64,000 nt of DNA from a virus. Position numbers and translations under genes: made by a program. Positions 34,864 through 61,707 of the stretch are shown here, one piece after another (the first letter of the stretch is position 1; every line of letters begins with the position of its first letter). The stretch lies in the IMG/VR virus record IMGVR_UViG_3300035137_000026, positions 96,001-160,000 of that record, one strand, 5' to 3'. The notes beneath the pieces were generated by a model, which was not told the origin of the DNA, did no database searches, and worked only from the letters and a program-made list of their open reading frames with translations.

Positions 34864-36783
34864 ATGGCAGGAACAAGGCTAGATAGATCTAATAGAGGCA
34901 AGGTGTCGTTTGGCACTGGTGCTCCTAGTTCATCTACTAGAGGCAATATTTATCTAGATGAGTCGAGTGGACTCTTGTATGTGAAGTCTGGGTCAACCTG
35001 GTACGTCTGTGGTGATAAGCTGTGGAACCTCGATGGCGGTAACATCGTTAATCGGAATAATTATCCACTTAAAATAACAGCTAGCGACGACTCTGAATTT
35101 ACTCTTAGCTCTAACAGCTCCTCAGATACTAGACTCACATTGGGGTCGGTTAATGCCGGCTCTGGTAGTGCTGAGCTATATATTGGTGGGTCTGAGACAG
35201 ATGAGCTTAACATCTCTGCCGTGACCTTCTTTATGCTTGGCTCCAATTCTTCGTATCTAGGAGTCAATGACGTAACGGTTTCAGATCTAACACTTACTGT
35301 AGACTGTTCAAACAACGGTGCTGGAGATGCACACGTTAAGATTGCAGGAGACAATAGTGTATCCTTGTGGACTGGCGAAAGCGATGGCTCGACAATTGCA
35401 CTATATGTCTCTGAGGTAGGAGCCGTTGGTATTGGAGCCGATCCGGGAAACTACGGAGTGGAGAGAGGTAGCCTAATTGTTGGCGATCTTACCTCGGGAA
35501 TGGCTGGGGCTGCCCTAAACATATGCGATATTACAAGCGTAGGAAATGTCAGCACATTCCGCCGAGATAGCAATACACTCAAGATCAACGAATATACCGC
35601 AACGACTGTAACAGAGTGGTATGACGGTGACTTCCCTAGCACAAGTCTTATCTATCGGCTGGATGGATCTGGTCATCACCATGCGGTTGACGGAACTACC
35701 AACCTACCTGCTTACAGTTTCATAAACAATGTAACAGCTGGGATGTATTACAACGACACTGATACTAGGTTAGAATGGAGTATTTCAACCAACCTGTTGA
35801 TGTATCTTAATTACAATGACGGACTAAGAGTGACGCTTGGTAACGGAACGGTTAACTTTTTGATTTCTGGAAACCAGATCTTTGACTGTAGTCTTACTGA
35901 AGTTGTTGTTAATAATGGCGGGCTTGATTCAGTAGACCTCCGTGTCGAGAGTGATAATTACAACAATATGCTGCGTGTAAATGCAGAATATGACCTCGTA
36001 GCCATCAGTAAGGATGGCGGTTGGACTACTGGCGGCCCCGCCGATGCGGCTCTAAATATATGCGACCACACAATGTTGCTAGGAGATGTAATCTACGACG
36101 TAGATTTTACAGATGCTACTTACTCAACTATTTCTCGTGTTCGTGCTCTAAGCATTAAGATGATTCCAACCGGTCTTAACGCCGGGGAAGATGCCCTGAC
36201 CAACTATACATTTGGTAATGGTACCTGGTTGACGGATTGTGGACCCACAGGAACGTGGACATATTCTTCCGGCTGGGTTATTCCCGGACAGACAGGTCGT
36301 GATATTGGATGTGCCCTAATCTTCCCTCTGATTCGCACTGGTAACTGGGAGTTTAAGGTTACATTTAGTACAGTTGCTCACACCGCATCTGATGAGACAC
36401 ACATCTCTCTTGGTGTAATATCTGTCGGTAACTTTACACCATTCCATACAGTTGCGGTATGTACATCAGCTGGAATTGCTGCTCCGCAGTTCTGTACATC
36501 CAACGGCAATGGTGGCTTTAATATGCAGCAGTCGGCTGGGTCGGCTGGCAGTTTGCCAGGCACCTTCTCGCTAGGTATACGGTATGAAAATGGCTGCTTC
36601 TTCCAATGGAATAACACTACTGGATCATGGCACACAACTGCATGGTCTGGTGTATTTGGAACTTCAGGAGGATGGTCTCAGTTTGGTATCGATCATCTTT
36701 ACTTCCTTGCAAGCAGCGAGGATGTGCTACAGTCCTCAAAAGATGTAACAGTAACAAACGTATACTTCGAATATCTAAACTAA
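34864..36783 (+). CDS. Tail fibre / receptor-binding protein
   Basis: 639 aa; N-terminal FGTGAPSS...GNIYLDESSGLLYVK, fibre repeat DGTTNLPAYSF...GMY, and a beta-sandwich C-terminus. Confidence 0.65.
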   Translation: MAGTRLDRSNRGKVSFGTGAPSSSTRGNIYLDESSGLLYVKSGSTWYVCGDKLWNLDGGNIVNRNNYPLKITASDDSEFTLSSNSSSDTRLTLGSVNAGSGSAELYIGGSETDELNISAVTFFMLGSNSSYLGVNDVTVSDLTLTVDCSNNGAGDAHVKIAGDNSVSLWTGESDGSTIALYVSEVGAVGIGADPGNYGVERGSLIVGDLTSGMAGAALNICDITSVGNVSTFRRDSNTLKINEYTATTVTEWYDGDFPSTSLIYRLDGSGHHHAVDGTTNLPAYSFINNVTAGMYYNDTDTRLEWSISTNLLMYLNYNDGLRVTLGNGTVNFLISGNQIFDCSLTEVVVNNGGLDSVDLRVESDNYNNMLRVNAEYDLVAISKDGGWTTGGPADAALNICDHTMLLGDVIYDVDFTDATYSTISRVRALSIKMIPTGLNAGEDALTNYTFGNGTWLTDCGPTGTWTYSSGWVIPGQTGRDIGCALIFPLIRTGNWEFKVTFSTVAHTASDETHISLGVISVGNFTPFHTVAVCTSAGIAAPQFCTSNGNGGFNMQQSAGSAGSLPGTFSLGIRYENGCFFQWNNTTGSWHTTAWSGVFGTSGGWSQFGIDHLYFLASSEDVLQSSKDVTVTNVYFEYLN

Positions 36784-36794
36784 GGAACTTCACT

Positions 36795-37148
36795 ATGTAT
36801 AATAAGTTTAGACAAGGGGTTATCGGCTGTATTAGGAAACCTACTCTTAAGGAACTTCGCCGGTCACTTGAGGCAGGTACTCGAGAAAAGATTGTCGATA
36901 AGCTTCGCAACACAGACCCTGTTGATGTGATTGTGGTCAGTAGTGATGAAGACAAAATCGATCTAAAACTTCAGAGAGAGCAGGAAGAAGCTGAAGAAAA
37001 TGCTTGTATTGAGTCGCTTGTAGAAGAAGTATATGGTGGTCTACTGGTGGCAGAGATCTCCGTCGAGGAGATTCCCACCAAGAAACCTAAGCGTAAGAAG
37101 AGAACTACAAAGAAGAGAGTTACGAAGAAGACTACTGAAGCTTCCTAG
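36795..37148 (+). CDS. Hypothetical protein with an acidic middle and a Lys/Arg-rich tail (117 aa)
   Basis: Start moved to MYNKFRQG at 36795 (RBS AAGGA), because the longer ORF overlaps the fibre gene; tail is KKPKRKKRTTKKRVTKK. Confidence 0.55.
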   Translation: MYNKFRQGVIGCIRKPTLKELRRSLEAGTREKIVDKLRNTDPVDVIVVSSDEDKIDLKLQREQEEAEENACIESLVEEVYGGLLVAEISVEEIPTKKPKRKKRTTKKRVTKKTTEAS

Positions 37149-37344
37149 CTAATTCCAACAGCTCCCGAGTCTCGGCCTCGAGCTGCTCTACGAGTTGTGT
37201 CAATTCCTCAATCCTATTCTGTCCAAGCACATTCAGTCTGTTTAGCTGGTTAATGCTCCCGCCTCCTTGGACGAGGACGGCAAGTTGTCTTACGGTAGTC
37301 TCTAGATCGTCTAGTCGCTTACGTTCTGTGGTAGTTAGCGCCAT
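37132..37344 (-). CDS. Small coiled-coil protein
   Basis: 70 aa heptad pattern; RBS AGGAG; last gene of the - strand run. Confidence 0.55.
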   Translation of the reverse strand: MALTTTERKRLDDLETTVRQLAVLVQGGGSINQLNRLNVLGQNRIEELTQLVEQLEAETRELLELARKLQ

Positions 37345-37919
37345 TAGTCTGTTCTCCTAAAGGTAGTATGTATCAACATATTGCCACGGTGGTTATCTTT
37401 AATGTGCTCGCTAGTGTATTCAGGGTGGTCTGCTAGAAACTTATCTACTGCTCGTCTGACGCCTCTAAGGAAATCATAGTCATCAACTAAAATCCACTCA
37501 CATACCTTATGTGATATTTCCATGTCATGAAGGCAGCCTTTGTAGGAATGGTCGCCATCAATATGTATAAAATCATATTTGCCACCATATAGTTCGTTAT
37601 TCCTTTGGCTGTCAAATAATACCAAGTTCACATTGAATTCCCTAAGGATTTTAGGTGCTAGGTCGGTAAAGAGTCCACTGACTCCCCCGTGAGCATTTCC
37701 GTTGTTGTCTAGGCCTATAAACTCAGCCTGATGACATGCACTTAGGAAAGCAAAAGCAGAGTATCCAGCTCGCACACCGATTTCACATATACGCTTGGGT
37801 TTCAAACGCTTGGCAATGGCGTGCTTGTTTCTGTAATAGTGTTCTACTTTAGGGTTTGTAGGGAAAGACTTTCTTTCGCCGTCCCACCACATTTCAGCCA
37901 ATTCATTCCACCAATCCAT
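37344..37919 (-). CDS. Class I SAM-dependent methyltransferase (Methyltransf_24-like)
   Basis: ICEIGVRAGYS, FIGLD, YDFIHIDGDHSY, ILVDDY; start moved to MDWW at 37919 (RBS AAGGA). Confidence 0.8.
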   Translation of the reverse strand: MDWWNELAEMWWDGERKSFPTNPKVEHYYRNKHAIAKRLKPKRICEIGVRAGYSAFAFLSACHQAEFIGLDNNGNAHGGVSGLFTDLAPKILREFNVNLVLFDSQRNNELYGGKYDFIHIDGDHSYKGCLHDMEISHKVCEWILVDDYDFLRGVRRAVDKFLADHPEYTSEHIKDNHRGNMLIHTTFRRTD

Positions 37920-37929
37920 TATGTTTTCC

Positions 37930-38745
37930 TTACCACCATGAGAGGTTAACATACCCAACCTGTTCAAGTAGTTCTTTTAGTTCGTCATCCTGGTGCAGGC
38001 ACTCATACTCTACTCCGAGTATCCGCTTCATGCCAGTAACATCTCCTGATAGTATCATGTTCTTGGCTTCATTAAAACCTTCCACCCCACGTTCTCTCTT
38101 GCATAGTAGAGTGCCATCCTCAGTAAGCCCAATTGGCCTCCAATCGTAGACGAAATCTAGGCCAGGCTTCCTCAGTTTAAGCCCACAGTACTTAAATAGG
38201 TCGCTTGCCAAGTTAATCCGACCCTCTAGCTCTTTGGCTGCATCTGTATCAACAGGGAATAGAAATCGGTTTTTGCAGGGTATTTTTAAGATATCTTTAA
38301 AGCGTGCAGCAACAGTTTGTGCTCTGTCTTCTCGTATTGCTTGGTCTTCGTGCTGATAGTGTACCTTATACCTTGCATAGGTTCTCCAGATTAGGGTGTT
38401 AAGAGAAAGCATCGGATCTCGCATCGAAATTACTACTGGTATTTGGGATCTTTTGGTTTGTAGAGTAGTTACTAAGGGTGAACCAGGAGTGTCATGGTGA
38501 CCATGCACCAGGATAACATCTTTCCCAGCTTTTTCTTCTGGAGTTAGGAAACTTAAAGCTGTTTTCTGAATCCATGACTGGTCTACTACAGTACAGGGAT
38601 TGTTCTCGAGCGAGAGTTTTCTGCCTCGGTTTTCCATAAATCTCTCGCCTTTCCAAAAGAATTTGTCTGGCGGATAGTTACTTTGGATTAGTCGACACAT
38701 AAACGTACCACCAGTGTGTGTGACGGTGTAGGCTATGGCTATCAT
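37930..38745 (-). CDS. Sulfotransferase-like P-loop protein
   Basis: YTVTHTGGTF (5'-PSB-like) and VVISMRDPMLS (3'-PB-like); paralogue of 39469-40314. Confidence 0.6.
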   Translation of the reverse strand: MIAIAYTVTHTGGTFMCRLIQSNYPPDKFFWKGERFMENRGRKLSLENNPCTVVDQSWIQKTALSFLTPEEKAGKDVILVHGHHDTPGSPLVTTLQTKRSQIPVVISMRDPMLSLNTLIWRTYARYKVHYQHEDQAIREDRAQTVAARFKDILKIPCKNRFLFPVDTDAAKELEGRINLASDLFKYCGLKLRKPGLDFVYDWRPIGLTEDGTLLCKRERGVEGFNEAKNMILSGDVTGMKRILGVEYECLHQDDELKELLEQVGYVNLSWW

Positions 38746-39467
38746 GTGGTTTCTGCTCCTTTAATTTTACTGGTCAGCTGGTCGTATGATTGTTTGGCGT
38801 AGTGCTCCCATCCTGTCCAGACGATACCATTCTTGTCCTGCCCACAATAATTCTGTGGTTCTTTTGCATCACAAGCAGTAAGCTCCATTTGTACAGTGGG
38901 CCAGCCAAGTATATGAGCAGCTTTTCGTGTGAAGTTAGCTAGCCTTTTGATTATGGTTCTGTCTTGTGCCCGAGAACACTCATAGCGAACCATGATCTTC
39001 TTGACATGGGAACCCCAGTTTTCGTTGACTCTCTTATCCATTTCAGCCAACATGTTTTCTAACTCTTTTGGATTTGGGCGCTTTATTCTCTTGGCCACGC
39101 CGAACTTTACCAGAAATCCTCCCTTAAGACGGAAGGCATATCTCACCCCGTCACCCAGGTCATAGTACTGACTGGTGGCCTCGTGGAATGGGGACCATAA
39201 GAAAGTATCAATCTTCCTGGGTATTTTATAAGCAACTGGCCTCATCATCTTTAGCTGATCCGGGGACAGTTTGTCTGCATAAGGCATCGTGAATTTTTTG
39301 CCTGGCACAAACTTTTTGAGAAATAACTCTAGACCTGCTCCCATGGCGGTGTAGGTGTCGGGCGTCTTAGTGCTAATACAATCACACATGCTAAAGCGTT
39401 TGATGTGACCTAGGGTAGAACGTTGACGACCCTTAACAGCTAACTGGATAAGTTCCTCGTTAGTCAT
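38742..39467 (-). CDS. Hypothetical protein, possibly a degenerate SGNH/GDSL fold
   Basis: FSMCDCIS near the N-terminus and WEHYAKQSY near the C-terminus loosely resemble GDSL blocks I and V. Confidence 0.3.
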   Translation of the reverse strand: MTNEELIQLAVKGRQRSTLGHIKRFSMCDCISTKTPDTYTAMGAGLELFLKKFVPGKKFTMPYADKLSPDQLKMMRPVAYKIPRKIDTFLWSPFHEATSQYYDLGDGVRYAFRLKGGFLVKFGVAKRIKRPNPKELENMLAEMDKRVNENWGSHVKKIMVRYECSRAQDRTIIKRLANFTRKAAHILGWPTVQMELTACDAKEPQNYCGQDKNGIVWTGWEHYAKQSYDQLTSKIKGAETT

Positions 39468-39468
39468 G

Positions 39469-40314
39469 TTACCACCATAGAAGATTGCTGTATCCAGCCT
39501 TGTCTAAAAGCTTCTTTAGAGGATCTTCCTTCTGCAGAAATTCAAATTCAAAGTTGCAGAATGCATTCTTCTGAATGTAGCTTACGTTGCCAGACTTGTA
39601 CTCTCGTTTCATCTGCTCGAATTGGCTATAGGCCTTGTCTTGGCCTGCTCCAGAACTCTTCTCTTGGCTGGTGTTGATGGGCTTCCAATTGTTTACAAAC
39701 TCTTGTGTTTGCTGGTTGTACTGTAGGCCACAGTGTTTGTAGAGATCTTTGGCTAGCGACGTGCGCCCCTGGGTGGTCTTCGACAACTCTCCGTCTATAG
39801 GGAATAGCAACATTCTGGCAGGCGGCACGACAAGTATATCCATAAAGGTTTGACAGATTCTTCTTGCTTCCTTGTGTCTTTGCTCTATCGGCCTTATATT
39901 GGGTAGTTTCCTACCGTATCCATACCAGCCCTGCCACGAACGAGTCATAATAGCTAGGAACGGGTCTCGTAGAGGAGACACAAATGATATATCGAGCGGA
40001 TCGGCGTGATGTAGAATCTTCATTATTGGCTTGCCTCTGTGCCAGTGATGCCCCTTAATAAGAAGCAACTCTAAATTACTCCACATCTTAAATACTTTGT
40101 CATCGGGCTTTGCAGACTTCTTAATCAGTATTCTGAGCTGATTACCACTAATAGGAGATTGGAAATTGTAGTCTTCATAGTTCATGCCATCATGATAGCG
40201 GTTGCCAAACCACATATCGTCAACTTGGCACCACTTGTTTGTACTCTGCCGCTGTAGATCCATTACAAAGTGAGTGCCAGTGTGGGGTATTGTATACGTA
40301 AAGATTGTTTTCAT
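39469..40314 (-). CDS. Sulfotransferase-like P-loop protein
   Basis: YTIPHTGTHF and FVSPLRDPFLA; colinear with 37930-38745 through to GYSNLLWW. Confidence 0.6.
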   Translation of the reverse strand: MKTIFTYTIPHTGTHFVMDLQRQSTNKWCQVDDMWFGNRYHDGMNYEDYNFQSPISGNQLRILIKKSAKPDDKVFKMWSNLELLLIKGHHWHRGKPIMKILHHADPLDISFVSPLRDPFLAIMTRSWQGWYGYGRKLPNIRPIEQRHKEARRICQTFMDILVVPPARMLLFPIDGELSKTTQGRTSLAKDLYKHCGLQYNQQTQEFVNNWKPINTSQEKSSGAGQDKAYSQFEQMKREYKSGNVSYIQKNAFCNFEFEFLQKEDPLKKLLDKAGYSNLLWW

Positions 40315-41201
40315 TGACCCATTAAATCCTGTAACTTTTTAACAACCTCAGCAGTTTCTAGCTCTTGAAACTTGTGTGGTGGAAGTTCATAAGCGTGAGT
40401 CCACTTTTCTTCATATGCCCAGTTTCCTGTCTCTCCTCCGTGCTGCATGACACTTCGTTGGTTGCCATGCTCGTCACGGGTAGGATAGAAGTATACAGAT
40501 GGTACACTATTTGTCCACGCCGCAGATAGCATGCTACTGTGCGCACCAATAAATCCCGCTGCCTCTCTAACGATAGCAGCTCCAAGACGTAAAGATGTTA
40601 GGTTAATCATATTGTGGATTTTGGGGCCAGATACATCAAGCACCTCGTCCTGACAACGAATACCCATGCGTCCCCGTTCTGAGTGTCCCAGGATAACAAC
40701 TGGAGTTCCTAGTCGTTGAAGCTCTTCTATTACTTCAATATACTTAAAGTCTGGGAAACACTTGTACTTCCCGTCCTTAGGATGTGGTCGACAGCCTCTA
40801 TGTGGAAGACCAGCAAATGGGTGAATAACAACATATGGCTCTTGTCTTATCTCGTCTAGAATCTTAGTCTCTGTTGGAGACAGATATAGCTTGTTTAGAC
40901 TTGGTTTAATTTGGTTGTTAGAAGCATATTTTTTTATGTCTTCTGTTAAAACCATTTGCTTCCACATCCGTTCGTCCGGATGCCCAGGCGGCTTCCAGTC
41001 ATGAGTAAGAATTGCATCGATATGGGGATTGAGTTCGATCAACTCTCTTGCTGTAGAAGAATGACATGTGATTATGGCTATAATTTTGATGTCTTTATCA
41101 TGCTTCTTTACGTTCTCGACTAGTTTCCACTGAGGCTTCTTGAAGTATGTGTATATAAAGTCTCCGACTCCCCCTCCTGCTCGTACATGTAATATGGTCA
41201 T
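40311..41201 (-). CDS. Glycosyltransferase, GT9 (heptosyltransferase-like, GT-B fold)
   Basis: GGGVGDFIY, PYVVIHPFAG, FIGAHSSMLSAA. Confidence 0.7.
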   Translation of the reverse strand: MTILHVRAGGGVGDFIYTYFKKPQWKLVENVKKHDKDIKIIAIITCHSSTARELIELNPHIDAILTHDWKPPGHPDERMWKQMVLTEDIKKYASNNQIKPSLNKLYLSPTETKILDEIRQEPYVVIHPFAGLPHRGCRPHPKDGKYKCFPDFKYIEVIEELQRLGTPVVILGHSERGRMGIRCQDEVLDVSGPKIHNMINLTSLRLGAAIVREAAGFIGAHSSMLSAAWTNSVPSVYFYPTRDEHGNQRSVMQHGGETGNWAYEEKWTHAYELPPHKFQELETAEVVKKLQDLMGQ

Positions 41202-41203
41202 GC

Positions 41204-43183
41204 CTATCTCCTAAATTTCTTCTTGACTACTTCGGCAACCTGCTTAGCTCTTATGGCTAACATGCATTTAGAGTGTCCTCGAATTGTGTTTAGCTGCTTA
41301 CAGGGTATTCTACTGTTTCTCCAGCAAGGAATACAGTCCATATCTGATTTTATCACAGTCACATTATCGTAGCCCTTACATCGAGGCCTATAGTCTATAG
41401 GACCAAATAGAGCTATGGTGGGTATGTTTAGGGCCGCTCCGAAGTGAAGGAGGCTGGTGTCCACAGTAATGAGTCCATCGCACTGCTCAAGAATCGCTAT
41501 GGATTTCTGGAGTGGGAAGCCACAGGCATCAATCACGTTTTTGAAAACGTGTTCTCTTGAGTGATCAATTAATATTAGCTCAAAGTGTGGACCCAGCAAC
41601 TCAGATAGCTGGTGGAAGTACTTCTCAGGCCAGTTGCGATACATTTCGGCGCTTCGCAGCCCGACAGCTATCTTTGGCTTATTAGAGGATACCGTCTTTG
41701 CAATGAAGTCTTTTGCCCACTGTCTATGGTCATCGTGTACTATATATTTAGGCTTTAGTTCATGTACGATTTCTCTGACTCCAGCTGCTTCAGCGTATAT
41801 CTCAACACGACTTTTCTGTACATCCTTGCCTGCAGCCACCCTAGCAGATTCGTATCTGGCACATGGCGATGATAGATCAATAATGGCGTAGTATCTTTTG
41901 GGATTGATATGTGCATCCGCATCTATTAGCCTATGAACACTAGGGTTATTTTGCAGAACAGGCCATAGTTTACTCTGGCAAGCGACCTCAATGCGTTTGT
42001 CTGGATGCTTTTCCTTGATAGCCTCGAGCGTGGGCGTAACCATTAACATATCACCAATACCGTCTGTAATTCGCCGCACCAGAATGACAGGGTCCTGATT
42101 CTTATCAGTAAGATCTTTGCCGTATGTTATGTGTGCGGCCGTTATGTAGTTACTAGTAATTTTCCTTCTGATTGCTACTTTCACATCTTCTGGTGTTACA
42201 CCAGTGAGGCACGCAAACTTATTACCCTGGCTCTTGGTGCATCGTGGGCTGTACCAACAGAACTGGCACGGGAGCTTCTTTAACAACACGGTGCAGTTGG
42301 AGTAGTAGTTGCATCTGCTCTCTGGGGGCACAGGACCAAAAATTGCAATGATTTTCTTTTGGAGTGCGCCGGCCAAATGAAGCATGCCGCTATCAGGACA
42401 GACAGTTACCTCACAGCAATCCATGATGGCCGCAACCTCCGTGAGCTTGTGATCTGCTATTATAGTTACGTTACTCTTCTTGTGTCTCTCCCATCTCTCG
42501 ACAGTGTTACCCCAGTCGAATAGAAAGACATGTAAGTCATCGTCTTCAGCCAACAAGTCTATTAGGGTGCCGATGTGATTGAGTGGCCATGTACGTCTGG
42601 CATCGTTGCTGCGAGCCTGGATGGCAATTAGAGTTTTTTGGCCTTTTACATGTTTCTTGATAAACCTGTCGGCCCACTTCCGTTCTTCCTTCTCAATAAT
42701 GTAGATTGGAATAGGATCTGCAGATACATCTATGCCTACGGCATTAGCAAACATGTCTATTCTGTTAGGTGGTATAGTTCCAGGCTTCTCTTGGTCTAAT
42801 CCAGTGGAGGTGATGTCTACAACATAATCGTATTCTGGGTCTCGAGCATCATGAAAAGGTATCAGCGTGTCTACATACGGATTATGTCTAATGATGTCAG
42901 CCAGTGCCCCCTGCGAGTACTTCATGTCAGTAGCATAGGTAATGTGACACTGTGGGATAACCATCTTAATAGCCTTAGTTATTGGCGTTGTCATGAGAAC
43001 ATCGCCAATACCACCCAACCTACGCTTCAAGCAGATTCGTGGGCTCACAGATCGCCTAAGCCTGCTGATCTTAATACGAGTTCCTTCGACCTTCTTCTTT
43101 GAGCTGGCGTTGACAACTCTAGCTGGCCTTGGGGATCTCCTATGTTTTGGGGTTATTACTCCATGCTTCATTTTGTTGGCCAT
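41204..43183 (-). CDS. Tandem double GT9 glycosyltransferase
   Basis: Two full GT9 units: RRLGGIGDVLMTTP...DSGMLHLAGAL..IAIFGP and RITDGIGDMLMVTP...DTSLLHFGAAL..IALFGP; basic N-terminal extension. Confidence 0.85.
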   Translation of the reverse strand: MANKMKHGVITPKHRRSPRPARVVNASSKKKVEGTRIKISRLRRSVSPRICLKRRLGGIGDVLMTTPITKAIKMVIPQCHITYATDMKYSQGALADIIRHNPYVDTLIPFHDARDPEYDYVVDITSTGLDQEKPGTIPPNRIDMFANAVGIDVSADPIPIYIIEKEERKWADRFIKKHVKGQKTLIAIQARSNDARRTWPLNHIGTLIDLLAEDDDLHVFLFDWGNTVERWERHKKSNVTIIADHKLTEVAAIMDCCEVTVCPDSGMLHLAGALQKKIIAIFGPVPPESRCNYYSNCTVLLKKLPCQFCWYSPRCTKSQGNKFACLTGVTPEDVKVAIRRKITSNYITAAHITYGKDLTDKNQDPVILVRRITDGIGDMLMVTPTLEAIKEKHPDKRIEVACQSKLWPVLQNNPSVHRLIDADAHINPKRYYAIIDLSSPCARYESARVAAGKDVQKSRVEIYAEAAGVREIVHELKPKYIVHDDHRQWAKDFIAKTVSSNKPKIAVGLRSAEMYRNWPEKYFHQLSELLGPHFELILIDHSREHVFKNVIDACGFPLQKSIAILEQCDGLITVDTSLLHFGAALNIPTIALFGPIDYRPRCKGYDNVTVIKSDMDCIPCWRNSRIPCKQLNTIRGHSKCMLAIRAKQVAEVVKKKFRR

Positions 43184-43195
43184 GCAGAGCCTCTG

Positions 43196-43777
43196 TTAGG
43201 TGGTTTTGATGAACTCGAAATTAATTGATGGCTTGAAGTTCTCGTCGTCGAAATACTCCGCCTCTGTAGTACCAAAGACCTCGCCGGTAGCATGAAAGCT
43301 GCCAGGCTCTGCATTGTGGACTGTATAAACAAGGTGGGTTACGAGCATAGTCTTGTCAGCTAGAATTTCACCAATCTTGTCACCTAGTTCTGTGTGGAAT
43401 CTAGGTTCGTCAGAATTCAGCATCCGTGTCCGAATGTTGTCAACTCTACGCTGGCTTGGATAGTCGCCCAACTTGATTTCCATTCGGAAGATGTTGGGGC
43501 GGCTTCTCATGAGAGTCTTGCAGTACTGCTGTGCTCTCTCTAGGCTCATGCTGCGGATGTCAGTAATGCCTGCCATTGGTGGCGGACTGGCTGGGTCCAT
43601 ATCGTAATAGTCATATGTAACCCTCATGCGCTGAACACCTTTGCCACTAGCATTAATAGCCTTGACAATGCTGCTCTGATCTTTGGCATACTCGGCAACT
43701 TCCTGATGTGTGGGGTTCCGGCCGAAAAGACCAGACGATGGATTTCTTACTGCATTGGGATCGAACTCTTTAGTCAT
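43196..43777 (-). CDS. Hypothetical protein
   Basis: 193 aa, coupled to neighbours; no motif recognised. Confidence 0.55.
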   Translation of the reverse strand: MTKEFDPNAVRNPSSGLFGRNPTHQEVAEYAKDQSSIVKAINASGKGVQRMRVTYDYYDMDPASPPPMAGITDIRSMSLERAQQYCKTLMRSRPNIFRMEIKLGDYPSQRRVDNIRTRMLNSDEPRFHTELGDKIGEILADKTMLVTHLVYTVHNAEPGSFHATGEVFGTTEAEYFDDENFKPSINFEFIKTT

Positions 43778-44355
43778 TTTTGACTCCTCCAGTTTAATGT
43801 CTCTTGCAAGTCAGACAGCATCGTAGCAACTGTTCTTCTGTCTATTTTTAGTAACTTAGCAAGTCCTTGAGCTGTGAGCTGCCTCTGATCAGCTGCAAGT
43901 ATCATATATATAAGATATTTTTCGCTTCTTGTAAAGCATTTTCCTACATATCTGTCTTCCCATAGGATATTTGGGACGGTCCAATAGAACTCCTCATCCA
44001 GGGCATACTCACCACCAGTATCAACGAGACCACTAGGCTCCTCTAATGGACACATGTACTTTTCAACTCTGGAGAGCATGTCGGCTACCCGTCTAGGTAT
44101 CTGAGCCTCTAGGTAAGGCACAATAGAACTAGTATACTTCTTGTGCTCTCTAAACAGCTGTTCACAAAGCATAAACAACTCTGATTCAGCTTCAGCTGCC
44201 AGCAACCCCTTCTTCATGAGAGACCTCTTAGCCCAGCCTAACAGAGGCCTAAGCAATATATAGAATGCATAGACCCTGTCCTGCTGGCTAGTCTCAGGAG
44301 TGTAGAATATGGCTCTCTCGTATTTACGAAAGAGGTGTTTGCGGCGTAGCTTCAT
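43774..44355 (-). CDS. Putative sigma-factor-like protein with a C-terminal HTH
   Basis: AESELFMLCEQLF...SSIVPYLEAQIPRRVADMLSR resembles region 2; LTAQGLAKLLKIDRRTVATML is an HTH like region 4. Confidence 0.45.
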   Translation of the reverse strand: MKLRRKHLFRKYERAIFYTPETSQQDRVYAFYILLRPLLGWAKRSLMKKGLLAAEAESELFMLCEQLFREHKKYTSSIVPYLEAQIPRRVADMLSRVEKYMCPLEEPSGLVDTGGEYALDEEFYWTVPNILWEDRYVGKCFTRSEKYLIYMILAADQRQLTAQGLAKLLKIDRRTVATMLSDLQETLNWRSQK

Positions 44356-47187: not shown

Positions 47188-47793
47188 TTATTCCCAACCT
47201 CTGATTTTGTCTGCATACTTCTTAGTTAGCTCGTCGTAGAAGAGGTACTTGAAGCCTTGTTTCTCGCAGAACTCAATATCCTTCTTCTTATACTTGTTAT
47301 AGATGATAATGATAGTCTTTGCTGCATCATCGGGATAACACTTCTTGAAGCGTCTGAGTTTGTTCCGGCTGCGGGCATCCATATATCCCTTAACCTCTAC
47401 CCAGCCCTGCTCTAATCCATCGGGTAGCTTCTTTCTGCCACGTATCTCAAAGTCCATTACATATACATGAGGTTTGGTCTTGTACCCCTCAAATGTAAAG
47501 GCCCGCTCCTCATACTTCCAGGGCACTCCTAAGTGCTGGAGTATCCTTGCGAAGTTTGCCTCTGTGGCCGACTTGAAGGAGTATGCGGGATGTACATCTT
47601 TCCGTACACCCTTCTTTGTCCGTGCAAAGTTGGCAGCCACAGTCTTGATTGTCTTAGACCCACGGCTGGACTTCGCTGTTTTCTTGTCACCACAATCTAC
47701 ACAGACAATCTTCATTGCCATCTTGTAGCCATCGCCCAAGTAAAACAATTCCTTGCCGCATACACTACAGCAAACAATTCTACTTCCTACCAT
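47188..47793 (-). CDS. PD-(D/E)xK endonuclease (T7 endonuclease I / resolvase-like) with an N-terminal Zn ribbon
   Basis: FKSATEANFA...WKYE...YVMDFEI...WVEVKGY; CSVC...CVDC at the N-terminus. Confidence 0.7.
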   Translation of the reverse strand: MVGSRIVCCSVCGKELFYLGDGYKMAMKIVCVDCGDKKTAKSSRGSKTIKTVAANFARTKKGVRKDVHPAYSFKSATEANFARILQHLGVPWKYEERAFTFEGYKTKPHVYVMDFEIRGRKKLPDGLEQGWVEVKGYMDARSRNKLRRFKKCYPDDAAKTIIIIYNKYKKKDIEFCEKQGFKYLFYDELTKKYADKIRGWE

Positions 47794-58959: not shown

Positions 58960-61707
58960 TCAGATGGCCCCTAGTGCCTCGCTATATATCTCAAGGTTGG
59001 CGAAAACCCCGCCTAGTTGGTCATTGCCAGACAAGAATTGACATATGTCAATTCGGTCTAGATCATCTGGTATAACAGCAGATGTGTCTTGCGCCTTGTC
59101 TGCGTCAACCATTAGTCGGACATCATCAGGTTTCCAATGTATGTATCCACGGTGTTGATTGCCGTCACAGATATTGCCATCTACCGGTAACTGCACTGAG
59201 TATGCCCCGCCAACCCGTATGTAAGTTGACAGCCTGTTACTAGCTGAAAGGTTCATGAATGTCCATATCGCATCATTGCTTGATCCACCATCGCTAAACA
59301 CAAGAAATTGCCGATAAACACTTGGGGTAAAGTCTGGCAGCATAAAGTCAAATCCACAAGTATTTCTACCTCCGCTTCCGACTCCACCAAGATTTCCATC
59401 ATCGCTCTTAAATCTTAGTTGATCCTTAGATCTCGTCTCAGCTGAAGCTCCGGTAATTATTGGTGATGTAGCATAATCATAGTTCTCACATTGTGCGTAC
59501 CAAATATAAATATCTTCTGTTACACCATCCCCTGCAAATGTGACGTCGTTATCATTTTCTGCGACAAACACACTCCAATAATGTGAAGCAGCAGTACCAG
59601 TAATTTTTAGTACCACCAAAACAAAACCATCACCCAAGTCCTCGATGTATGGCAGAGCACCATTGCCGTTTGTTCCTATAGCAACATTAGCCAAGTCGAA
59701 GTGTGCATATGCTCCTGTTATGGAGTCAACTACCTTAATCCACTCCTTGTCACCTGCTTTAAAGACTGCGCTGAATGTCCAATCGTCAGCTGTAAGCGTT
59801 ATATTTGTCCGAACGCTATGAGTATCGTTATCTACACTACAGACAACTGCATCCATTTGAATTCCTGGGCCGGGTCCATCAATGGAATCAGAGTTGATAG
59901 TACATCGTGTTTTGGTCCATACGGCATTATTAAAGTCATCGCAATACGTAAATAGATTCTGTGACTGAGGTTCTGATAGTCCTCCCTTGATGATTCTCTT
60001 CTGTGTCGGGCGGGCCACACACCGCAACGCTTCTTCTCCAGCTAGATAATATCGTCGTGGTGGAACCTTCTCTAAGGTAATCTTATCAAATTCTACGTAT
60101 CCGTCAGTACTTGCAAGTGCATATAGGAAAGGACCTCGTACAGCAGAAGCGGTATATGATACATCAAAGTACTGCCAGTCTGTGCTGGTGGTAAGATTGA
60201 AGCTAGCACTCCCAATGTTAGATACCCGAGGAGTGGTCACTCCATCGCTTCTACCGAATCCTGTTATTCTGTATCTCTCACCTGGCTCACATTGATGTAG
60301 TTGCCGTGCAAATGGGTTGGTTGTCCCATCATATGCAATTCTAAGGCACCTAGAACCATCTACTGGATCACTTTGCTTAGTGAGTACTGCATCATTCTGA
60401 GCATCCCATCTAGCAACACCGGGAAGCTCCATATCTCCATCCTCTAGATATATACGCTTTATTACGATGTTATCAAACTCTGAGTATCCAGAAGCACCCC
60501 AGTTATAAAGTCTTATATCGCCTGCGCTTGTTACGAATACCTCGTCTAACTCTTGCCACTCGTTGCTGATTGTGCCAGTCCAAATTGAGGTACCACCCCA
60601 GAGGATTCTAGGGTACCCGGAGCTGCCGTCGCCACGGGCTCTACCAGTGATACGGTATGTCTTGTTTGGTGTGAGAACCTGTTGATAGGCATACGCATTC
60701 ATTGTACCATCATAGGCTACACGTAGTACCTGTCTTACTCCATATGACTCCTTAGTCAAAATAGCATCATTCCAAGGAGTCCAGTCGGAAGTTGACTCTC
60801 TTTCCATGTCACCGTCATTAACTACATTTCCGTCCGGCTCTGCTTTGTCTACATATGCAGGATAGTTTCTGGTCTTTAGGATTGGTGCAGCAGTGCCTTT
60901 GGCTAGCTGGGGCCACTGACCCCAAAACTTTGCTGATAGTTTTGCCGCTAGATCATCTTGTACATGTGTATCAAGCCAATCTTGGCCAATCCAGGTAGCG
61001 GCATAGAGTATATCTCCATCAAATGGTTGATTAGCTACTCTTGAACCAAAGTGGAATTCATTAGCGCCATTCAGAGTGGAGTGATATGATGATACATCAA
61101 CTGCCGAACCGCTAGGTAAGCCGTTAACATATATCTGAGCATATCCATTTCTATCTACAAATACCCATGCATCGTAATACCTACCTGTAATTAGGGTGTC
61201 TGAATATATGCCTATATAGCCACTTGAGTCATGTAAGACAACACGCAGTCTATGTGATGATGTGAATGTCCATTCCCAACCAACATTGCCAGTTCTAGTT
61301 GCTAAGATAGATCGATGTGCGGAATCATCAGTACAATTGAAAATTATTCCTGATACTATATCCTCGGTCGATACCTGACCAAATGTTGCATTCCCAGCCT
61401 TATAAAAATCGCTTCCTGCTCCGGAGAAGCGTACAGAACGGTCCATTGGCCCAAGTGCTATAGATCCTTGCCGATACTCTGGCTGCGTGCCACCAGTTTG
61501 TCTAGTAAGAATTTCCCCATATTTCCAAGGAGCAAGATCAGTACTATTGGCATCTATTCCTCTATACCTGTATAGAGGAGATTTGGTTTGTCCATTGATA
61601 GTTAGAAACTCAGACAGTCGGGCTATGCCATTGATGGGCATGTCTGGCTTATCTTTGTACAGCTCAAATGTCTTGAAGGCTGATGGTCTGGAACTACGTA
61701 TGATCAT
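58960..61707 (-). CDS. Lectin-rich fibre/spike-like protein (LamG + two CBM4/9-like repeats + head-fibre-like domain + LamG-like end)
   Basis: 915 aa; QIYVNG...FDGDI (LamG); two DGDME...W...YRITG..R.DG...EFD.I repeats; GGLSEPQSQNLFTY...ITGASAETRSKD. Confidence 0.7.
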   Translation of the reverse strand: MIIRSSRPSAFKTFELYKDKPDMPINGIARLSEFLTINGQTKSPLYRYRGIDANSTDLAPWKYGEILTRQTGGTQPEYRQGSIALGPMDRSVRFSGAGSDFYKAGNATFGQVSTEDIVSGIIFNCTDDSAHRSILATRTGNVGWEWTFTSSHRLRVVLHDSSGYIGIYSDTLITGRYYDAWVFVDRNGYAQIYVNGLPSGSAVDVSSYHSTLNGANEFHFGSRVANQPFDGDILYAATWIGQDWLDTHVQDDLAAKLSAKFWGQWPQLAKGTAAPILKTRNYPAYVDKAEPDGNVVNDGDMERESTSDWTPWNDAILTKESYGVRQVLRVAYDGTMNAYAYQQVLTPNKTYRITGRARGDGSSGYPRILWGGTSIWTGTISNEWQELDEVFVTSAGDIRLYNWGASGYSEFDNIVIKRIYLEDGDMELPGVARWDAQNDAVLTKQSDPVDGSRCLRIAYDGTTNPFARQLHQCEPGERYRITGFGRSDGVTTPRVSNIGSASFNLTTSTDWQYFDVSYTASAVRGPFLYALASTDGYVEFDKITLEKVPPRRYYLAGEEALRCVARPTQKRIIKGGLSEPQSQNLFTYCDDFNNAVWTKTRCTINSDSIDGPGPGIQMDAVVCSVDNDTHSVRTNITLTADDWTFSAVFKAGDKEWIKVVDSITGAYAHFDLANVAIGTNGNGALPYIEDLGDGFVLVVLKITGTAASHYWSVFVAENDNDVTFAGDGVTEDIYIWYAQCENYDYATSPIITGASAETRSKDQLRFKSDDGNLGGVGSGGRNTCGFDFMLPDFTPSVYRQFLVFSDGGSSNDAIWTFMNLSASNRLSTYIRVGGAYSVQLPVDGNICDGNQHRGYIHWKPDDVRLMVDADKAQDTSAVIPDDLDRIDICQFLSGNDQLGGVFANLEIYSEALGAI

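What the first reader, a model, noticed from the sequence alone, without database searches (positions are those of the whole stretch)
37344..43183. Phage glycan-tailoring cluster: three GT9 domains, two sulfotransferase-like proteins and a methyltransferase
Seen: six contiguous co-oriented genes abutting the end of the virion module: double GT9, single GT9, sulfotransferase-like, unknown, sulfotransferase-like, SAM methyltransferase. No nucleotide-sugar synthesis gene is in the window. Established: GT9 enzymes add heptoses to LPS core; some phages glycosylate their virions or modify host surfaces. Inference: an assembly line for a methylated and possibly sulfated glycan placed on the virion (shielding) or on the host envelope (superinfection exclusion), or less likely on DNA. 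A phage-made sulfated glycan would be new to me.
Basis: partly seen in the sequence, partly recalled or inferred. Interest (0 to 1): 0.72.

Follow-up and report, generated by a model that had tools for sequence, protein, structure and literature searches.

The report
Phage sugar-building and sulfating gene island
An uncultured 198-kb wetland phage carries a tight row of soluble enzymes that most likely build a short sugar chain and add sulfate and methyl groups to it; related phages keep the same slot with different sugar genes, at least one sulfate-adding enzyme wherever enough DNA is held, and in one contig the enzyme that makes the sulfate donor, but what the sugar is attached to is still unknown.

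Summary

The two "sulfotransferase-like" proteins belong to a family with no Pfam match. Their predicted fold matches PAPS sulfotransferases (22 best chains, Z 9.1-11.8); kinases score 7.9 or less. They lack a Walker-A GK[ST] motif and keep the 3'-phosphate motif, but have His where Lys/Arg normally sits in the 5'-phosphosulfate loop.

About 14 distinct related contigs share the frame HTH protein - 193-aa protein - tandem GT9 - variable island - 70-aa protein, facing tail-fibre genes. Islands swap GDP-mannose dehydratase, DegT aminotransferase, acetyl-, methyl- and pyruvyl-transferases. All 12 with enough sequence hold a sulfotransferase. One holds APS kinase two genes from a His-type member.

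This genome has no nucleotide-sugar or PAPS synthesis genes, so donors come from the host. It also lacks the hydroxymethylase, TET and C5-methylase genes of known DNA glycosylation routes.

The acceptor is unresolved: phage particle protein (about 0.4), host envelope (about 0.3). The scan has noted similar phage islands in at least 45 other genomes. Published work calls the role of phage sulfotransferases unclear.

The parts
41204..43183 (-). Tandem GT9 glycosyltransferase, 659 aa. It has a basic N-terminal tail (19 K/R in the first 55 residues), then GT9 domain 1 (about residues 52-340) and GT9 domain 2 (about residues 365-659). Each domain ends in an invariant Cys4 cluster: C306/C309/C315/C325 and C617/C620/C628/C640. 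This is the conserved first gene of the island.
   Evidence: Pfam PF01075 E 8.1e-31; 66.2 and 43.6 bits per domain. Nearest solved chains by sequence are 3TOV GT9, WaaF 1PSW and WaaC 2GT1, with the G-D and D(T/S)G..H...GP motifs aligned. Cys and tail conservation are seen in A5 and the residue counts. Homologues of 44-61% identity lie in about 14 distinct phage contigs.
40311..41201 (-). Diverged GT9-like glycosyltransferase, 296 aa. The N-lobe GVGD motif is kept. The C-lobe donor motif has changed to HSSMLS. Relatives carry one to four copies of this family per island.
   Evidence: Pfam 16.3 bits, below the 22-bit cut-off. hhalign of A7 against A5: 88.7%, E 2.6e-6, 210 columns. Atlas: nearest clusters are viral, partly PF01075, with structure TM 0.66 to a heptosyltransferase II cluster. 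Paralogue census.
39469..40314 (-). ST-A, 281 aa. A sulfotransferase-fold protein of a family with no Pfam match ('HTGT type'). Loop P10-H11-T12-G13-T14 follows strand 1. H89 is invariant at the end of strand 3. R116-D117-P118...T124 follows strand 4. The C-terminus reads GY.NL.WW.
   Evidence: AF2 model pLDDT 82.4, pTM 0.83. VIA-wide: the top 22 chains are all PAPS sulfotransferases (Z 11.8, rmsd 4.4, 215 aligned for 3-OST5, down to Z 9.1); the next chains are kinases and IPTases at Z 7.9 or less. Foldseek PDB top hits are all sulfotransferases (E 4e-4, TM 0.33-0.43). Atlas feature hits are viral Sulfotransfer_1/3 clusters, score 0.95. Conservation. hhalign to canonical island sulfotransferases: E 5.7e-5.
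38742..39467 (-). SGNH/GDSL-fold protein, 241 aa: an acyl-esterase or O-acyltransferase-like enzyme. Block I reads C28-D29-C30 where the family normally has G-D-S. H222 is invariant in a GWEHY motif near the C-terminus.
   Evidence: AF2 model pLDDT 90.7, pTM 0.88. All of the VIA-wide top 50 chains whose titles could be read for fold are SGNH/GDSL-type esterases or O-acetyltransferases, or phage tail proteins aligned over such a domain (Z 10.5, rmsd 3.4, 159 aligned for 4H08, down to Z 7.5). The five best Foldseek hits include PatB and GDSL esterases at E 4e-4 to 1.6e-3. Conservation in A3. Homologues sit in the islands of L004/L015, L005/L016, L006 and L009.
37930..38745 (-). ST-B, 271 aa. A paralogue of ST-A in the same HTGT-type family, with H10-T11-G12, GHH at residues 82-84 and MRDPMLSLNT.
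   Evidence: BLASTP against ST-A: 29% identity, E 2e-37. Motifs. E 1e-38 to the L027 member that lies two genes from APS kinase.
37344..37967 (-). Class I SAM-dependent methyltransferase, 207 aa by the longest ORF; the likely start is the ATG at 37919. It is of O-methyltransferase type.
   Evidence: Pfam Methyltransf_24 E 5.3e-10, 40.6 bits against a cut-off of 26.3. The homologue in L005 is fused to a polysaccharide pyruvyl transferase and also hits Methyltransf_3 (O-methyltransferase). The nearest solved chains by sequence are PaMTH1 and a putative O-methyltransferase, E 1.1e-3.
37132..37344 (-). 70-aa predicted coiled-coil protein ('sm70'). It closes the island in the window and in L009, L012, L016 and L023; in L011 it lies inverted. 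Function unknown.
   Evidence: Conserved at 37-54% identity at the island end. Sequence.
43196..44355 (-). Two conserved 193-aa proteins directly upstream of the tandem GT9. One is an unknown ('u193a', 43196-43777). The other has a C-terminal helix-turn-helix (43774-44355). They form the fixed left border of the island. Whether they take part in its function is not shown.
   Evidence: Present in nearly every related contig that reaches that far; L010 lacks a detectable HTH homologue. HTH_11 is weak at E 5.8e-4. No PDB sequence match of note.

Best explanation
The six genes are one phage's version of a swappable glycan island found in a lineage of large uncultured tailed phages.

Proposed working, with shown and inferred steps marked:
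1. All enzymes act as soluble proteins in the infected cell's cytoplasm (no membrane segments: shown).
2. The conserved tandem GT9 puts the first one or two sugars on an acceptor, and the GT9-like paralogue extends the chain. Donors are host nucleotide sugars; ADP-heptose is the family default, but the donor here is unknown (inferred).
3. Two sulfotransferase-fold enzymes add sulfate from host PAPS (fold and gene context shown; activity inferred).
4. An SGNH-fold enzyme with Cys in place of the usual Ser adds or removes an acyl group (fold shown; chemistry inferred).
5. An O-methyltransferase-type enzyme methylates a hydroxyl (family shown; substrate inferred).

I favour a phage protein as the acceptor, most likely a particle or fibre protein made in the same cytoplasm. 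The released particle would then carry a lineage-specific, negatively charged sugar coat. This last step is inference.
For: Operon-like packing.

GT9 identity of three domains.

Sulfotransferase reading:
- Fold well separated from kinases.
- Conserved H..HTG, H89 and RDP...T motifs across 71 homologues.
- Profile-profile link to canonical island sulfotransferases, E 5.7e-5.
- The HTGT-type gene lies directly after the tandem GT9 in L011, L023, L024, L027 and L030, and one gene later in L032.
- APS kinase (193.6 bits) lies two genes from an HTGT-type member in L027.
- Canonical Sulfotransfer_1 (63 and 47.5 bits) occupies the same islands.
- All 12 islands with enough sequence hold at least one sulfotransferase.

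Glycan context in relatives: GDP-mannose 4,6-dehydratase, DegT aminotransferase, hexapeptide and GNAT acetyltransferases, a sugar C-methyltransferase, FkbM and Methyltransf_23 methyltransferases, and a pyruvyl transferase fused to the methyltransferase.

For a phage-protein acceptor:
- No membrane segment in any island protein (maximum 19-residue hydropathy 1.49).
- No flippase, polymerase, ligase or lipid-priming transferase was found among the island genes scanned.
- The island always ends against the tail-fibre arm, next to a fibre gene of which only a short stretch near the N-terminus (39-58 residues) is conserved.
- Virion glycosylation has a precedent in mycobacteriophages (as summarised in PMC12619734).
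Against: No acceptor was found. The genome has no poly-Ser or mucin-like tract, and the ten virion and fibre proteins scanned have no RCC1 propeller.

Characterised GT9 enzymes mostly act on the LPS inner core. The sequence-nearest solved structures are WaaF, WaaC and 3TOV, not the protein-modifying TibC.

The 5'-phosphosulfate-loop Lys/Arg is His in the whole family. No member of A2 reaches any Pfam sulfotransferase model, and only one of 54 distant members does. Catalysis is therefore unproven.

The cluster lies on the strand of the replication genes, not the virion genes. No expression data exist. The host is unknown.
Confidence: 0.42

Rival explanations
1. The enzymology is the same, but the acceptor is a host envelope glycolipid or polysaccharide precursor, for example the lipid A-Kdo/core on the inner leaflet. 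The GT9 enzymes act as LPS-core transferases and host MsbA exports the product. The infected cell's surface is thereby changed by added sugars and sulfate. This would block superinfection, or stop progeny from sticking to debris.
For: All biochemically characterised relatives that the sequence searches hit are LPS heptosyltransferases. The basic N-terminal tail and the overall basic charge of the tandem GT9 would suit binding to an anionic membrane face. GT9 enzymes need no flippase of their own, which explains why the islands have no export genes. Islands that vary the way O-antigen clusters vary would fit a receptor arms race.
Against: The phage looks virulent and self-sufficient in replication, which leaves little time for envelope turnover (inference). 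Close tandem-GT9 homologues are absent from 185,579 species genomes; the best hit is a 27%-identity fragment in Spirosoma, so the gene was not recently taken from a host LPS locus. The island sits next to fibre genes. The host is unknown, so an LPS core with heptose cannot be assumed.
Confidence: 0.3
2. The glycan is built on phage DNA as a base hypermodification that protects against restriction. This would follow the phage gene clusters that put hexose, HexNAc, heptose or Kdo on 5-hydroxymethylcytosine.
For: Phage GT-B enzymes related to LPS enzymes have been shown to glycosylate 5hmC, heptose included (bioRxiv 10.1101/2023.12.21.572611). The cluster lies in the nucleotide and replication arm, next to ThyX. 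The tandem GT9 has a strongly basic tail.
Against: The complete genome has no ThyA-like hydroxymethylase, no TET/JBP dioxygenase and no C5-cytosine methyltransferase, so the hydroxymethyl handle used by those known routes is missing. The methyltransferase is of O-methyltransferase type and is fused to a polysaccharide pyruvyl transferase in a relative. Sulfated, pyruvylated or perosamine-type DNA adducts are unknown to me.
Confidence: 0.04
3. The two HTGT-type proteins are not sulfotransferases. They keep the fold but use another nucleotide donor or none, for example as a binding or scaffold subunit. Alternatively the island makes a free or small-molecule glycoside rather than decorating a macromolecule.
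For: His replaces the catalytic Lys/Arg of the 5'-phosphosulfate loop in nearly all members. There is no Pfam or PDB sequence match. Foldseek TM scores are only 0.33-0.43. The profile-profile link covers 96 columns at 65.8% probability. Several islands carry a canonical sulfotransferase as well, so the HTGT type could do something else.
Against: The fold ranking is clean: 22 sulfotransferases come before any other fold. The 3'-phosphate R...S/T motif and a His at the catalytic-base position are invariant. APS kinase lies two genes away in L027, an island fragment that shows no canonical sulfotransferase. Islands with only HTGT-type genes exist: the window, L016 and L023.
Confidence: 0.15

Closest known systems
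LPS inner-core heptosyltransferases WaaC and WaaF, and the GT9 structure 3TOV (CAZy GT9, Pfam PF01075)
   Same: GT-B fold family. N-lobe G-D motif and C-lobe D(T/S)G..H...GP donor motif are present. They are the nearest solved chains by sequence.
   Different: Here two GT9 domains are fused behind a basic tail, and each carries a Cys4 cluster. The genes are phage-encoded, with no close cellular homologue in 185,579 species genomes. In relatives they sit with GDP-sugar pathway genes, so the donors may not be ADP-heptose. The acceptor is unknown.
Bacterial autotransporter heptosyltransferases TibC and AAH (BAHT; eLife 2014, PMC4358343)
   Same: GT9-related soluble enzymes that glycosylate a protein in the cytoplasm. 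TibC has a Cys4 'iron finger' (C339/342/358/370) inserted in the C-lobe. The phage domains have invariant CxxC...C...C clusters at a comparable place.
   Different: TibC did not appear in the PDB sequence search at E up to 1, while WaaC, WaaF and 3TOV did. No TibC-type N-terminal beta-barrel and no autotransporter-like acceptor were seen.
PAPS-dependent sulfotransferases (heparan sulfate 3-OST and NDST, TPST, cytosolic SULTs, Stf9; Pfam Sulfotransfer_1/2/3)
   Same: Same fold over almost the whole chain (Z 9.1-11.8, 185-226 residues aligned). There is a strand-loop-helix at the N-terminus, an R-x7-S/T 3'-phosphate motif after a strand, and a conserved His where cytosolic SULTs have the catalytic His.
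   Different: No Pfam or PDB sequence match. His replaces Lys/Arg in the 5'-phosphosulfate loop. There is a family-specific C-terminal GY..L.WW motif. The family is known so far only from uncultured-phage-like contigs.
Sulfotransferase genes annotated in phages and giant viruses (Synechococcus phages S-SRM01 and S-SCSM1, OM43 phage genomes, Megaviridae)
   Same: Virus-encoded sulfotransferase-fold proteins. Canonical ones of this kind sit in the relatives' islands.
   Different: Published notes treat them as isolated auxiliary genes whose 'biological function ... remains unclear' (PMC10580990). Here they are fixed members of a glycan island, next to glycosyltransferases and in one contig next to APS kinase.
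Mycobacteriophage virion glycosylation, and giant-virus capsid or fibril glycosylation clusters
   Same: Virus-encoded soluble glycosyltransferases near structural genes. In the giant-virus case they come with dehydratase, aminotransferase, acetyl-, methyl- and pyruvyl-transferases; that comparison is from my own knowledge. The mycobacteriophage case is as summarised in PMC12619734.
   Different: Different glycosyltransferase families. No sulfation is reported there, to my knowledge. No glycosylated acceptor has been identified here.
SGNH/GDSL carbohydrate esterases and O-acetyltransferases (PatB, OatA C-terminal domain, sialate O-acetylesterase, CE2/CE3)
   Same: Fold match (Z 7.5-10.5). A His is conserved near the C-terminus, at the block V position.
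   Different: Block I G-D-S is C-D-C, so the nucleophile would be Cys. No Pfam match. Whether it adds or removes an acyl group is unknown.

Membership tests
CAZy GT9 / Pfam PF01075 (tandem protein, 41204-43183) | Score over Pfam's gathering threshold for each domain | tested here: met
   107.6 bits for the whole protein; 66.2 and 43.6 bits per domain against a cut-off of 22.
CAZy GT9 / Pfam PF01075 (tandem protein) | N-lobe Gly-Asp motif (catalytic Asp of WaaC) and C-lobe D(T/S)G..H....P...GP donor-binding motif | tested here: met
   GGIGDVLMTTP and DGIGDMLMVTP; PDSGMLHLAGAL...IFGP and VDTSLLHFGAAL...LFGP. These align to 3TOV, WaaF and WaaC and are invariant in three homologues.
CAZy GT9 / Pfam PF01075 (tandem protein) | ADP-L,D-heptose as donor and an LPS core acceptor | not testable with these tools
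   No GmhA-type SIS, SDR or NTP_transferase gene in the genome. One HldE-domain-II-like gene scores far below its cut-off. The host is unknown.
CAZy GT9 / Pfam PF01075 (296-aa protein, 40311-41201) | Score over Pfam's gathering threshold | tested here: not met
   16.3 bits against a cut-off of 22. The C-lobe motif has changed to HSSMLS.
CAZy GT9 / Pfam PF01075 (296-aa protein) | Homology to a bona fide GT9 domain over the whole domain | tested here: met
   hhalign of A7 against A5: 88.7%, E 2.6e-6, 210 columns, with the GD motif aligned. Atlas structure TM 0.66 to a PF01075 cluster.
PAPS sulfotransferase superfamily (ST-A, ST-B) | Sulfotransferase fold, distinct from P-loop kinases | tested here: met
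   VIA-wide ranks 1-22 are all sulfotransferases, Z 11.8-9.1 (rmsd 3.7-4.8, 185-226 aligned); kinases and IPTases score 7.9 or less. Foldseek PDB and BFVD top hits are sulfotransferases.
PAPS sulfotransferase superfamily | 5'-phosphosulfate-binding loop with catalytic Lys or Arg (PKSGTT, PRSGTT or KxGT) | tested here: not met
   The loop is present after strand 1, but it reads (P/x)HTGT in about 90% of 71 members; His takes the Lys/Arg position. Canonical island sulfotransferases read GETKCGTTS.
PAPS sulfotransferase superfamily | 3'-phosphate-binding motif: Arg after a strand, Ser/Thr eight residues later | tested here: met
   R116 is invariant, D117 and P118 are near-invariant, and T124 (or Ser) is mostly kept among the 71 members printed. 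It is aligned by hhalign to the RNP..RL.S motif of canonical sulfotransferases.
PAPS sulfotransferase superfamily | Catalytic base (His or Glu) at the end of the third strand | tested here: inconclusive
   H89 is invariant and sits at the end of strand E83-89 in the model. No residue-level structural superposition was available.
PAPS sulfotransferase superfamily | Match to a Pfam sulfotransferase model | tested here: not met
   0 of 71 members at E up to 0.01; 1 of 54 distant members. No PDB sequence match for the profile.
PAPS sulfotransferase superfamily | Access to PAPS | tested here: inconclusive
   The genome itself lacks APS kinase, ATP sulfurylase and CysD/H. Relative L027 encodes APS kinase (193.6 bits) two genes from an HTGT-type member. 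Host supply is assumed.
SGNH/GDSL hydrolase superfamily (241-aa protein) | Fold | tested here: met
   The top 50 VIA-wide chains are SGNH-type wherever the titles allow a reading, Z 10.5-7.5. The model has pLDDT 90.7.
SGNH/GDSL hydrolase superfamily | Block I Gly-Asp-Ser nucleophile and block V His | tested here: not met
   Block I reads C28-D29-C30, near-invariant, so there is no Ser. H222 is invariant. A Cys nucleophile is possible but untested.
Class I SAM methyltransferase, Methyltransf_24 | Score over Pfam's gathering threshold | tested here: met
   40.6 bits against a cut-off of 26.3. The L005 homologue scores 63.5 bits and also matches O-methyltransferase Methyltransf_3.
Phage DNA glycan hypermodification clusters (5hmC/5hmU based) | A hydroxymethylase (ThyA-like) or a TET/JBP dioxygenase, with or without a C5-methyltransferase, in the genome | tested here: not met
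   No PF00303, PF12851 or PF00145 match in the complete genome. Criteria taken from 10.1101/2023.12.21.572611.
BAHT (TibC/AAH) protein heptosyltransferases | Closer to TibC than to LPS enzymes; N-terminal beta-barrel; iron finger; autotransporter acceptor | tested here: inconclusive
   A Cys4 cluster is present. TibC is not listed in the PDB sequence search. No acceptor was found.
Virion glycosylation systems (mycobacteriophage type; the scan's RCC1 or poly-Ser cassettes) | An identifiable acceptor next to the enzymes: Ser/Thr-rich tail, poly-Ser tract or RCC1 propeller | tested here: not met
   The highest Ser+Thr share in a 40-residue window of a real virion protein is 0.42. No RCC1 or other such Pfam match in ten virion or fibre proteins.

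The most novel reading that the evidence does not exclude
A lineage of large environmental phages coats its own particle, probably its fibres, with a sulfated and methylated oligosaccharide made entirely by phage-encoded soluble enzymes. The GT9-type transferases would work as protein glycosyltransferases with donors beyond ADP-heptose. The sulfotransferase family would use His in place of the canonical Lys/Arg. That would be the first sulfated glycoconjugate known to be made by a bacterial virus.
Probability: 0.3. Interest if true: 0.8.

Novelty: new variant of a known kind. Interest (0 to 1): 0.6.

Why it matters
Phage sulfotransferase genes are listed in several surveys, but no role has been assigned to them. 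Here they are fixed members of a glycan island. Sulfation is the one tailoring step present in every island with enough sequence to judge, while the sugars and other decorations change from phage to phage. In one relative the PAPS-making enzyme travels with them.

That gives a concrete, testable hypothesis: sulfated phage-made glycans. It also defines a small set of soluble enzymes that can be expressed. These include a sulfotransferase family without Pfam coverage and with an unusual active-site loop, GT9 enzymes probably working outside LPS synthesis, and an SGNH enzyme with Cys in the nucleophile position.

If the acceptor is the particle, this bears on how environmental phages tune adsorption, charge and escape from recognition. 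If the acceptor is the host envelope, it is a new form of receptor editing by a large, probably lytic, phage.

Tried and rejected
**Searches for close relatives**
- Nucleotide search of the cluster against 50,697 GenBank phages: no match.
- tblastn of ST-B, the GT9-like protein, v479 and a 352-aa virion protein against the same set: no match.
- The tandem GT9 found only two weak uncultured hits.
- So no cultured relative can serve as a model.
- IMG/VR scans: A1 and the single tandem-GT9 protein found nothing. A8 found only one contig already held.
- The A2 alignment was too diverse for the metagenome scan (not counted).
- The genome collection gave only a 27%-identity, 88-residue GT9 hit in Spirosoma profusum, so no host clue.

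**Direct sequence tests of the sulfotransferase-like family**
- Pfam on ST-A, ST-B and the 241-aa protein at E up to 10: nothing relevant.
- Pfam on 71 family members: no sulfotransferase hit.
- Family profile against PDB sequences: only a chance ribosomal hit.
- hhalign against a single canonical sulfotransferase: 1% probability, though the RDP strand aligned.

**Regulation and expression**
- The promoter and terminator scan found no more sites than shuffled sequence, so no regulatory claim is made.
- Sequencing runs: no RNA holder is listed. The only holder is the probable source wetland DNA sample.

**Acceptor leads from earlier notes**
- RCC1 propeller and poly-Ser tracts were not found here.

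**Other checks**
- The relative's 380-aa protein with a PRSGTS loop gave no significant profile match.
- The phrase 'phage sulfotransferase' and three variants: 0 papers.

The genomic contexts of most of the 143 family representatives could therefore not be read.
- The structure-prediction cap (2 jobs) left the tandem GT9, the GT9-like protein, u193a and the methyltransferase unfolded.

Full report
**Setting**

The window is bases 96001-160000 of a 197,730-bp viral record with direct terminal repeats, rated complete. The only sequencing run that holds the cluster is a wetland metagenome, probably its source. No record among 50,697 GenBank phages resembles the cluster or two neighbouring virion genes, so this is an uncultured lineage with an unknown host.

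Yes. Six ORFs lie head to tail on the minus strand: 41204-43183, 40311-41201, 39469-40314, 38742-39467, 37930-38745 and 37344-37967. Gaps between them run from -38 to +2 nt. The tight packing continues upstream through two 193-aa genes to an intein-bearing ThyX, and downstream to a 70-aa ORF. That ORF ends about 350 nt from the end of the last plus-strand virion gene, so the two arms converge here.

**The glycosyltransferases**

The 659-aa protein has two GT9 domains, each over Pfam's cut-off.
- Its nearest solved relatives by sequence are the GT9 structure 3TOV, WaaF and WaaC. The N-lobe G-D motif and the C-lobe D(T/S)G..H...GP motif both align.
- It has a strongly basic N-terminal tail, with 19 Lys/Arg in 55 residues.
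- Each domain has a CxxC...C...C cluster, and all eight cysteines are invariant in three homologues.
- TibC, a protein-modifying relative of GT9, has a Cys4 iron finger in its C-lobe (PMC4358343). However, TibC did not appear in the sequence search while the LPS enzymes did, so I draw no conclusion from the motif.

The 296-aa protein fails Pfam's threshold at 16.3 bits. A profile of 12 homologues aligns to GT9 domain 2 over 210 columns (88.7%, E 2.6e-6), and the Atlas places it among viral GT9-like clusters. It is a diverged GT9-type enzyme whose donor-binding motif has changed.

**The two sulfotransferase-like proteins**

They are paralogues (29% identity, E 2e-37). Their family has 143 representatives at 50% clustering in a library of 1.8 billion proteins. 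Pfam does not recognise the family, and its profile matches no solved structure by sequence.

- **Fold.** The AlphaFold model of ST-A has pLDDT 82, pTM 0.83. It was aligned to 48,161 representative chains.
  - The 22 best are all PAPS sulfotransferases, from Z 11.8 (rmsd 4.4, 215 residues, heparan sulfate 3-OST5) down to Z 9.1.
  - P-loop kinases and isopentenyl transferases follow at Z 7.9 or less.
  - Foldseek against PDB and against viral models gives sulfotransferases first, at modest scores.
  - Atlas language-model neighbours are viral Sulfotransfer_1/3 clusters.
- **Motifs across 71 homologues**.
  - A strand-loop-helix reading HTGT.
  - An invariant His at the end of the third strand.
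  - An invariant Arg in P(M/I)RDPLLS(L/I)(N/H)(T/S).
  - A C-terminal GY..L.WW.
  - The Arg...Ser/Thr spacing is that of the 3'-phosphate motif.
- **Link to canonical enzymes.** hhalign aligns the Arg...Ser/Thr stretch to the RNP..RL.S motif of canonical sulfotransferases found in related islands (E 5.7e-5, 96 columns).
- **Against kinases.** There is no Walker-A GK[ST].
- **The real departure.** His sits where all canonical enzymes I know have Lys or Arg in the 5'-phosphosulfate loop. Activity needs a bench test.

**The former unknown and the methyltransferase**

The 241-aa protein folds with high confidence (pLDDT 90.7).
- Its 50 best VIA-wide matches are SGNH/GDSL-type wherever the titles allow a reading: carbohydrate esterases, peptidoglycan O-acetyltransferases, sialate esterases and phage tail proteins aligned over such a domain. 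Scores run from Z 10.5 (rmsd 3.4, 159 aligned) to Z 7.5.
- Block I reads Cys-Asp-Cys instead of Gly-Asp-Ser.
- A His near the C-terminus is invariant.

The methyltransferase passes Methyltransf_24. Its nearest solved relatives by sequence are O-methyltransferases. In a relative it is fused to a polysaccharide pyruvyl transferase and also matches Methyltransf_3. These points argue for a sugar hydroxyl rather than DNA as its substrate.

**Comparative evidence**

Scans of IMG/VR and JGI contigs with the 241-aa, tandem-GT9 and sulfotransferase-like families brought in about 14 distinct related contigs that carry the tandem GT9 or part of it. Nearly all that reach far enough share a fixed frame:
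1. an endonuclease-I-like protein,
2. a protein with a helix-turn-helix,
3. a 193-aa unknown,
4. the tandem GT9,
5. a block of variable gene content,
6. the 70-aa protein,
7. the converging fibre genes.

The variable block is drawn from the following families:
- GT9-like paralogues, one to four per island
- the SGNH-like protein
- HTGT-type sulfotransferase-like proteins
- canonical Sulfotransfer_1 proteins (63 and 47.5 bits)
- GDP-mannose 4,6-dehydratase
- DegT/DnrJ/EryC1 aminotransferase
- hexapeptide and GNAT acetyltransferases
- a sugar C-methyltransferase
- FkbM, Methyltransf_23 and Methyltransf_11 methyltransferases
- a pyruvyl transferase

The dehydratase, aminotransferase and acetyltransferase set is that of a perosamine-type amino-deoxy-sugar pathway (my inference from the families).

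Two findings bear directly on sulfation.
- Every one of the 12 islands with enough sequence has at least one sulfotransferase of either type. The HTGT type lies directly after the tandem GT9 in L011, L023, L024, L027 and L030, and one gene later in L032.
- In contig L027 the order is tandem GT9, HTGT-type protein (E 1e-38 to ST-B, all motifs present), a methyltransferase, then APS kinase (PF01583, 193.6 bits, with a GLSGAGKT loop). APS kinase makes PAPS.

**What the genome lacks**

The complete genome has no match to the following families:

| Family searched |
|---|
| APS kinase |
| ATP sulfurylase |
| PAPS_reduct family (CysD/CysH) |
| SDR epimerase/dehydratase |
| NTP_transferase |
| GmhA-type SIS |
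| GT2 |

- Of two cytidylyltransferase-like genes, one is NadD, part of a NAD-salvage set. The other is a 144-aa protein nearest to HldE domain II, but at 70 bits it is far below the 181.5-bit cut-off.
- Sugar, sulfate and methyl donors must therefore come from the host.
- The genome also lacks a ThyA-like hydroxymethylase, a TET/JBP dioxygenase and a C5-cytosine methylase. These are the entry enzymes of the known DNA glycosylation clusters (10.1101/2023.12.21.572611).

**Target**

None of the island proteins has a membrane segment. No island gene scanned encodes a flippase, polymerase, ligase or lipid-priming transferase. The acceptor is therefore either something that stays in the cytoplasm, such as phage proteins, or a lipid-linked precursor that the host exports itself, such as lipid A-core.

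I favour a phage particle or fibre protein, at about 0.4, for these reasons:
- the island always abuts the fibre arm;
- its content varies the way the neighbouring fibre gene varies;
- the tandem GT9 has no close cellular counterpart;
- virus-made virion glycans have precedents.

The envelope reading, at about 0.3, is kept alive by the LPS ancestry of GT9 and by the basic, membrane-friendly tail.

Earlier notes of this scan suggest that such islands decorate RCC1 propellers or poly-Ser proteins. I looked for both here and found neither, so no acceptor can be named.

**Novelty**

Phage sulfotransferase genes are already annotated, and one paper says their function 'remains unclear' (PMC10580990; also PMC8290583; BFVD entries). 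Four phrase searches for phage or viral sulfotransferases returned no paper. This scan has noted comparable islands in at least 45 genomes, one of them with the same tandem-GT9 architecture.

What this case adds:
- a defined lineage-wide slot in which sulfation is the constant element;
- a sulfotransferase family without Pfam coverage and with a His loop;
- its linkage to APS kinase in one relative;
- an SGNH member with Cys at the nucleophile position.

I rate it a new variant of a known kind, interest 0.6.

**Limits**

- The fold-prediction cap left the GT9 proteins unfolded.
- No RNA data exist for this DNA.
- The host is unknown.

Noticed in passing
L012:12905-15130 and L024:1138-4227: Relatives carry LAGLIDADG inteins inside glycan genes. 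One is a 741-aa GDP-mannose 4,6-dehydratase and the other a 1029-aa tandem GT9. This lineage also has inteins in ThyX and DnaE.
   Followed up: no
G000:C1:180851-181285 (L021:1352-1786, minus strand; outside the window): A stand-alone 144-aa cytidylyltransferase-like protein. Its best NCBIfam match is HldE domain II (heptose-1-phosphate adenylyltransferase), at 70.3 bits against a cut-off of 181.5. It could supply an ADP-sugar for the GT9 enzymes, but it is unassigned.
   Followed up: partly
L027:2317-2871 and L027:4070-5053: A relative's contig encodes APS kinase inside its island. About 1.2 kb further on it encodes a 327-aa 'Volactin' actin-like protein (PF25216, 239 bits).
   Followed up: partly
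window 43196-44355: Two 193-aa proteins lie immediately upstream of the tandem GT9 in nearly every relative; one has a weak C-terminal HTH_11 match. They may be a regulator pair or part of the system. Neither has a family or PDB match.
   Followed up: partly
L016:17031-18173 (minus strand): In the virion arm of the 174-kb relative, a 380-aa protein begins IVISGCPRSGTS, like a canonical sulfotransferase phosphate loop. Profile comparisons were not significant.
   Followed up: partly
window 36627-37148 (+): This 173-aa ORF overlaps the end of the last virion gene and the 70-aa gene. It is Lys/Arg-rich and low in complexity, and is probably not a gene.
   Followed up: no
window 16073-19663 and 58960-61707: The 1196-aa fibre protein ends in an intramolecular-chaperone domain (Peptidase_S74). 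The 915-aa fibre-like protein inside the split polymerase gene has a CBM_4_9 sugar-binding domain.
   Followed up: no
window 47188-47793: A 201-aa protein resembles phage endonuclease I (26.4 bits, below the cut-off). It is conserved at 41-70% identity in all relatives as the left anchor of the shared frame.
   Followed up: no
L006:4602-13846: A more distant 91-kb phage contig holds the SGNH-like gene in a different island: GT4, several GT2 genes, a pyruvyl transferase and a radical SAM enzyme, with no GT9. The SGNH-like protein is therefore a portable glycan-island part.
   Followed up: partly
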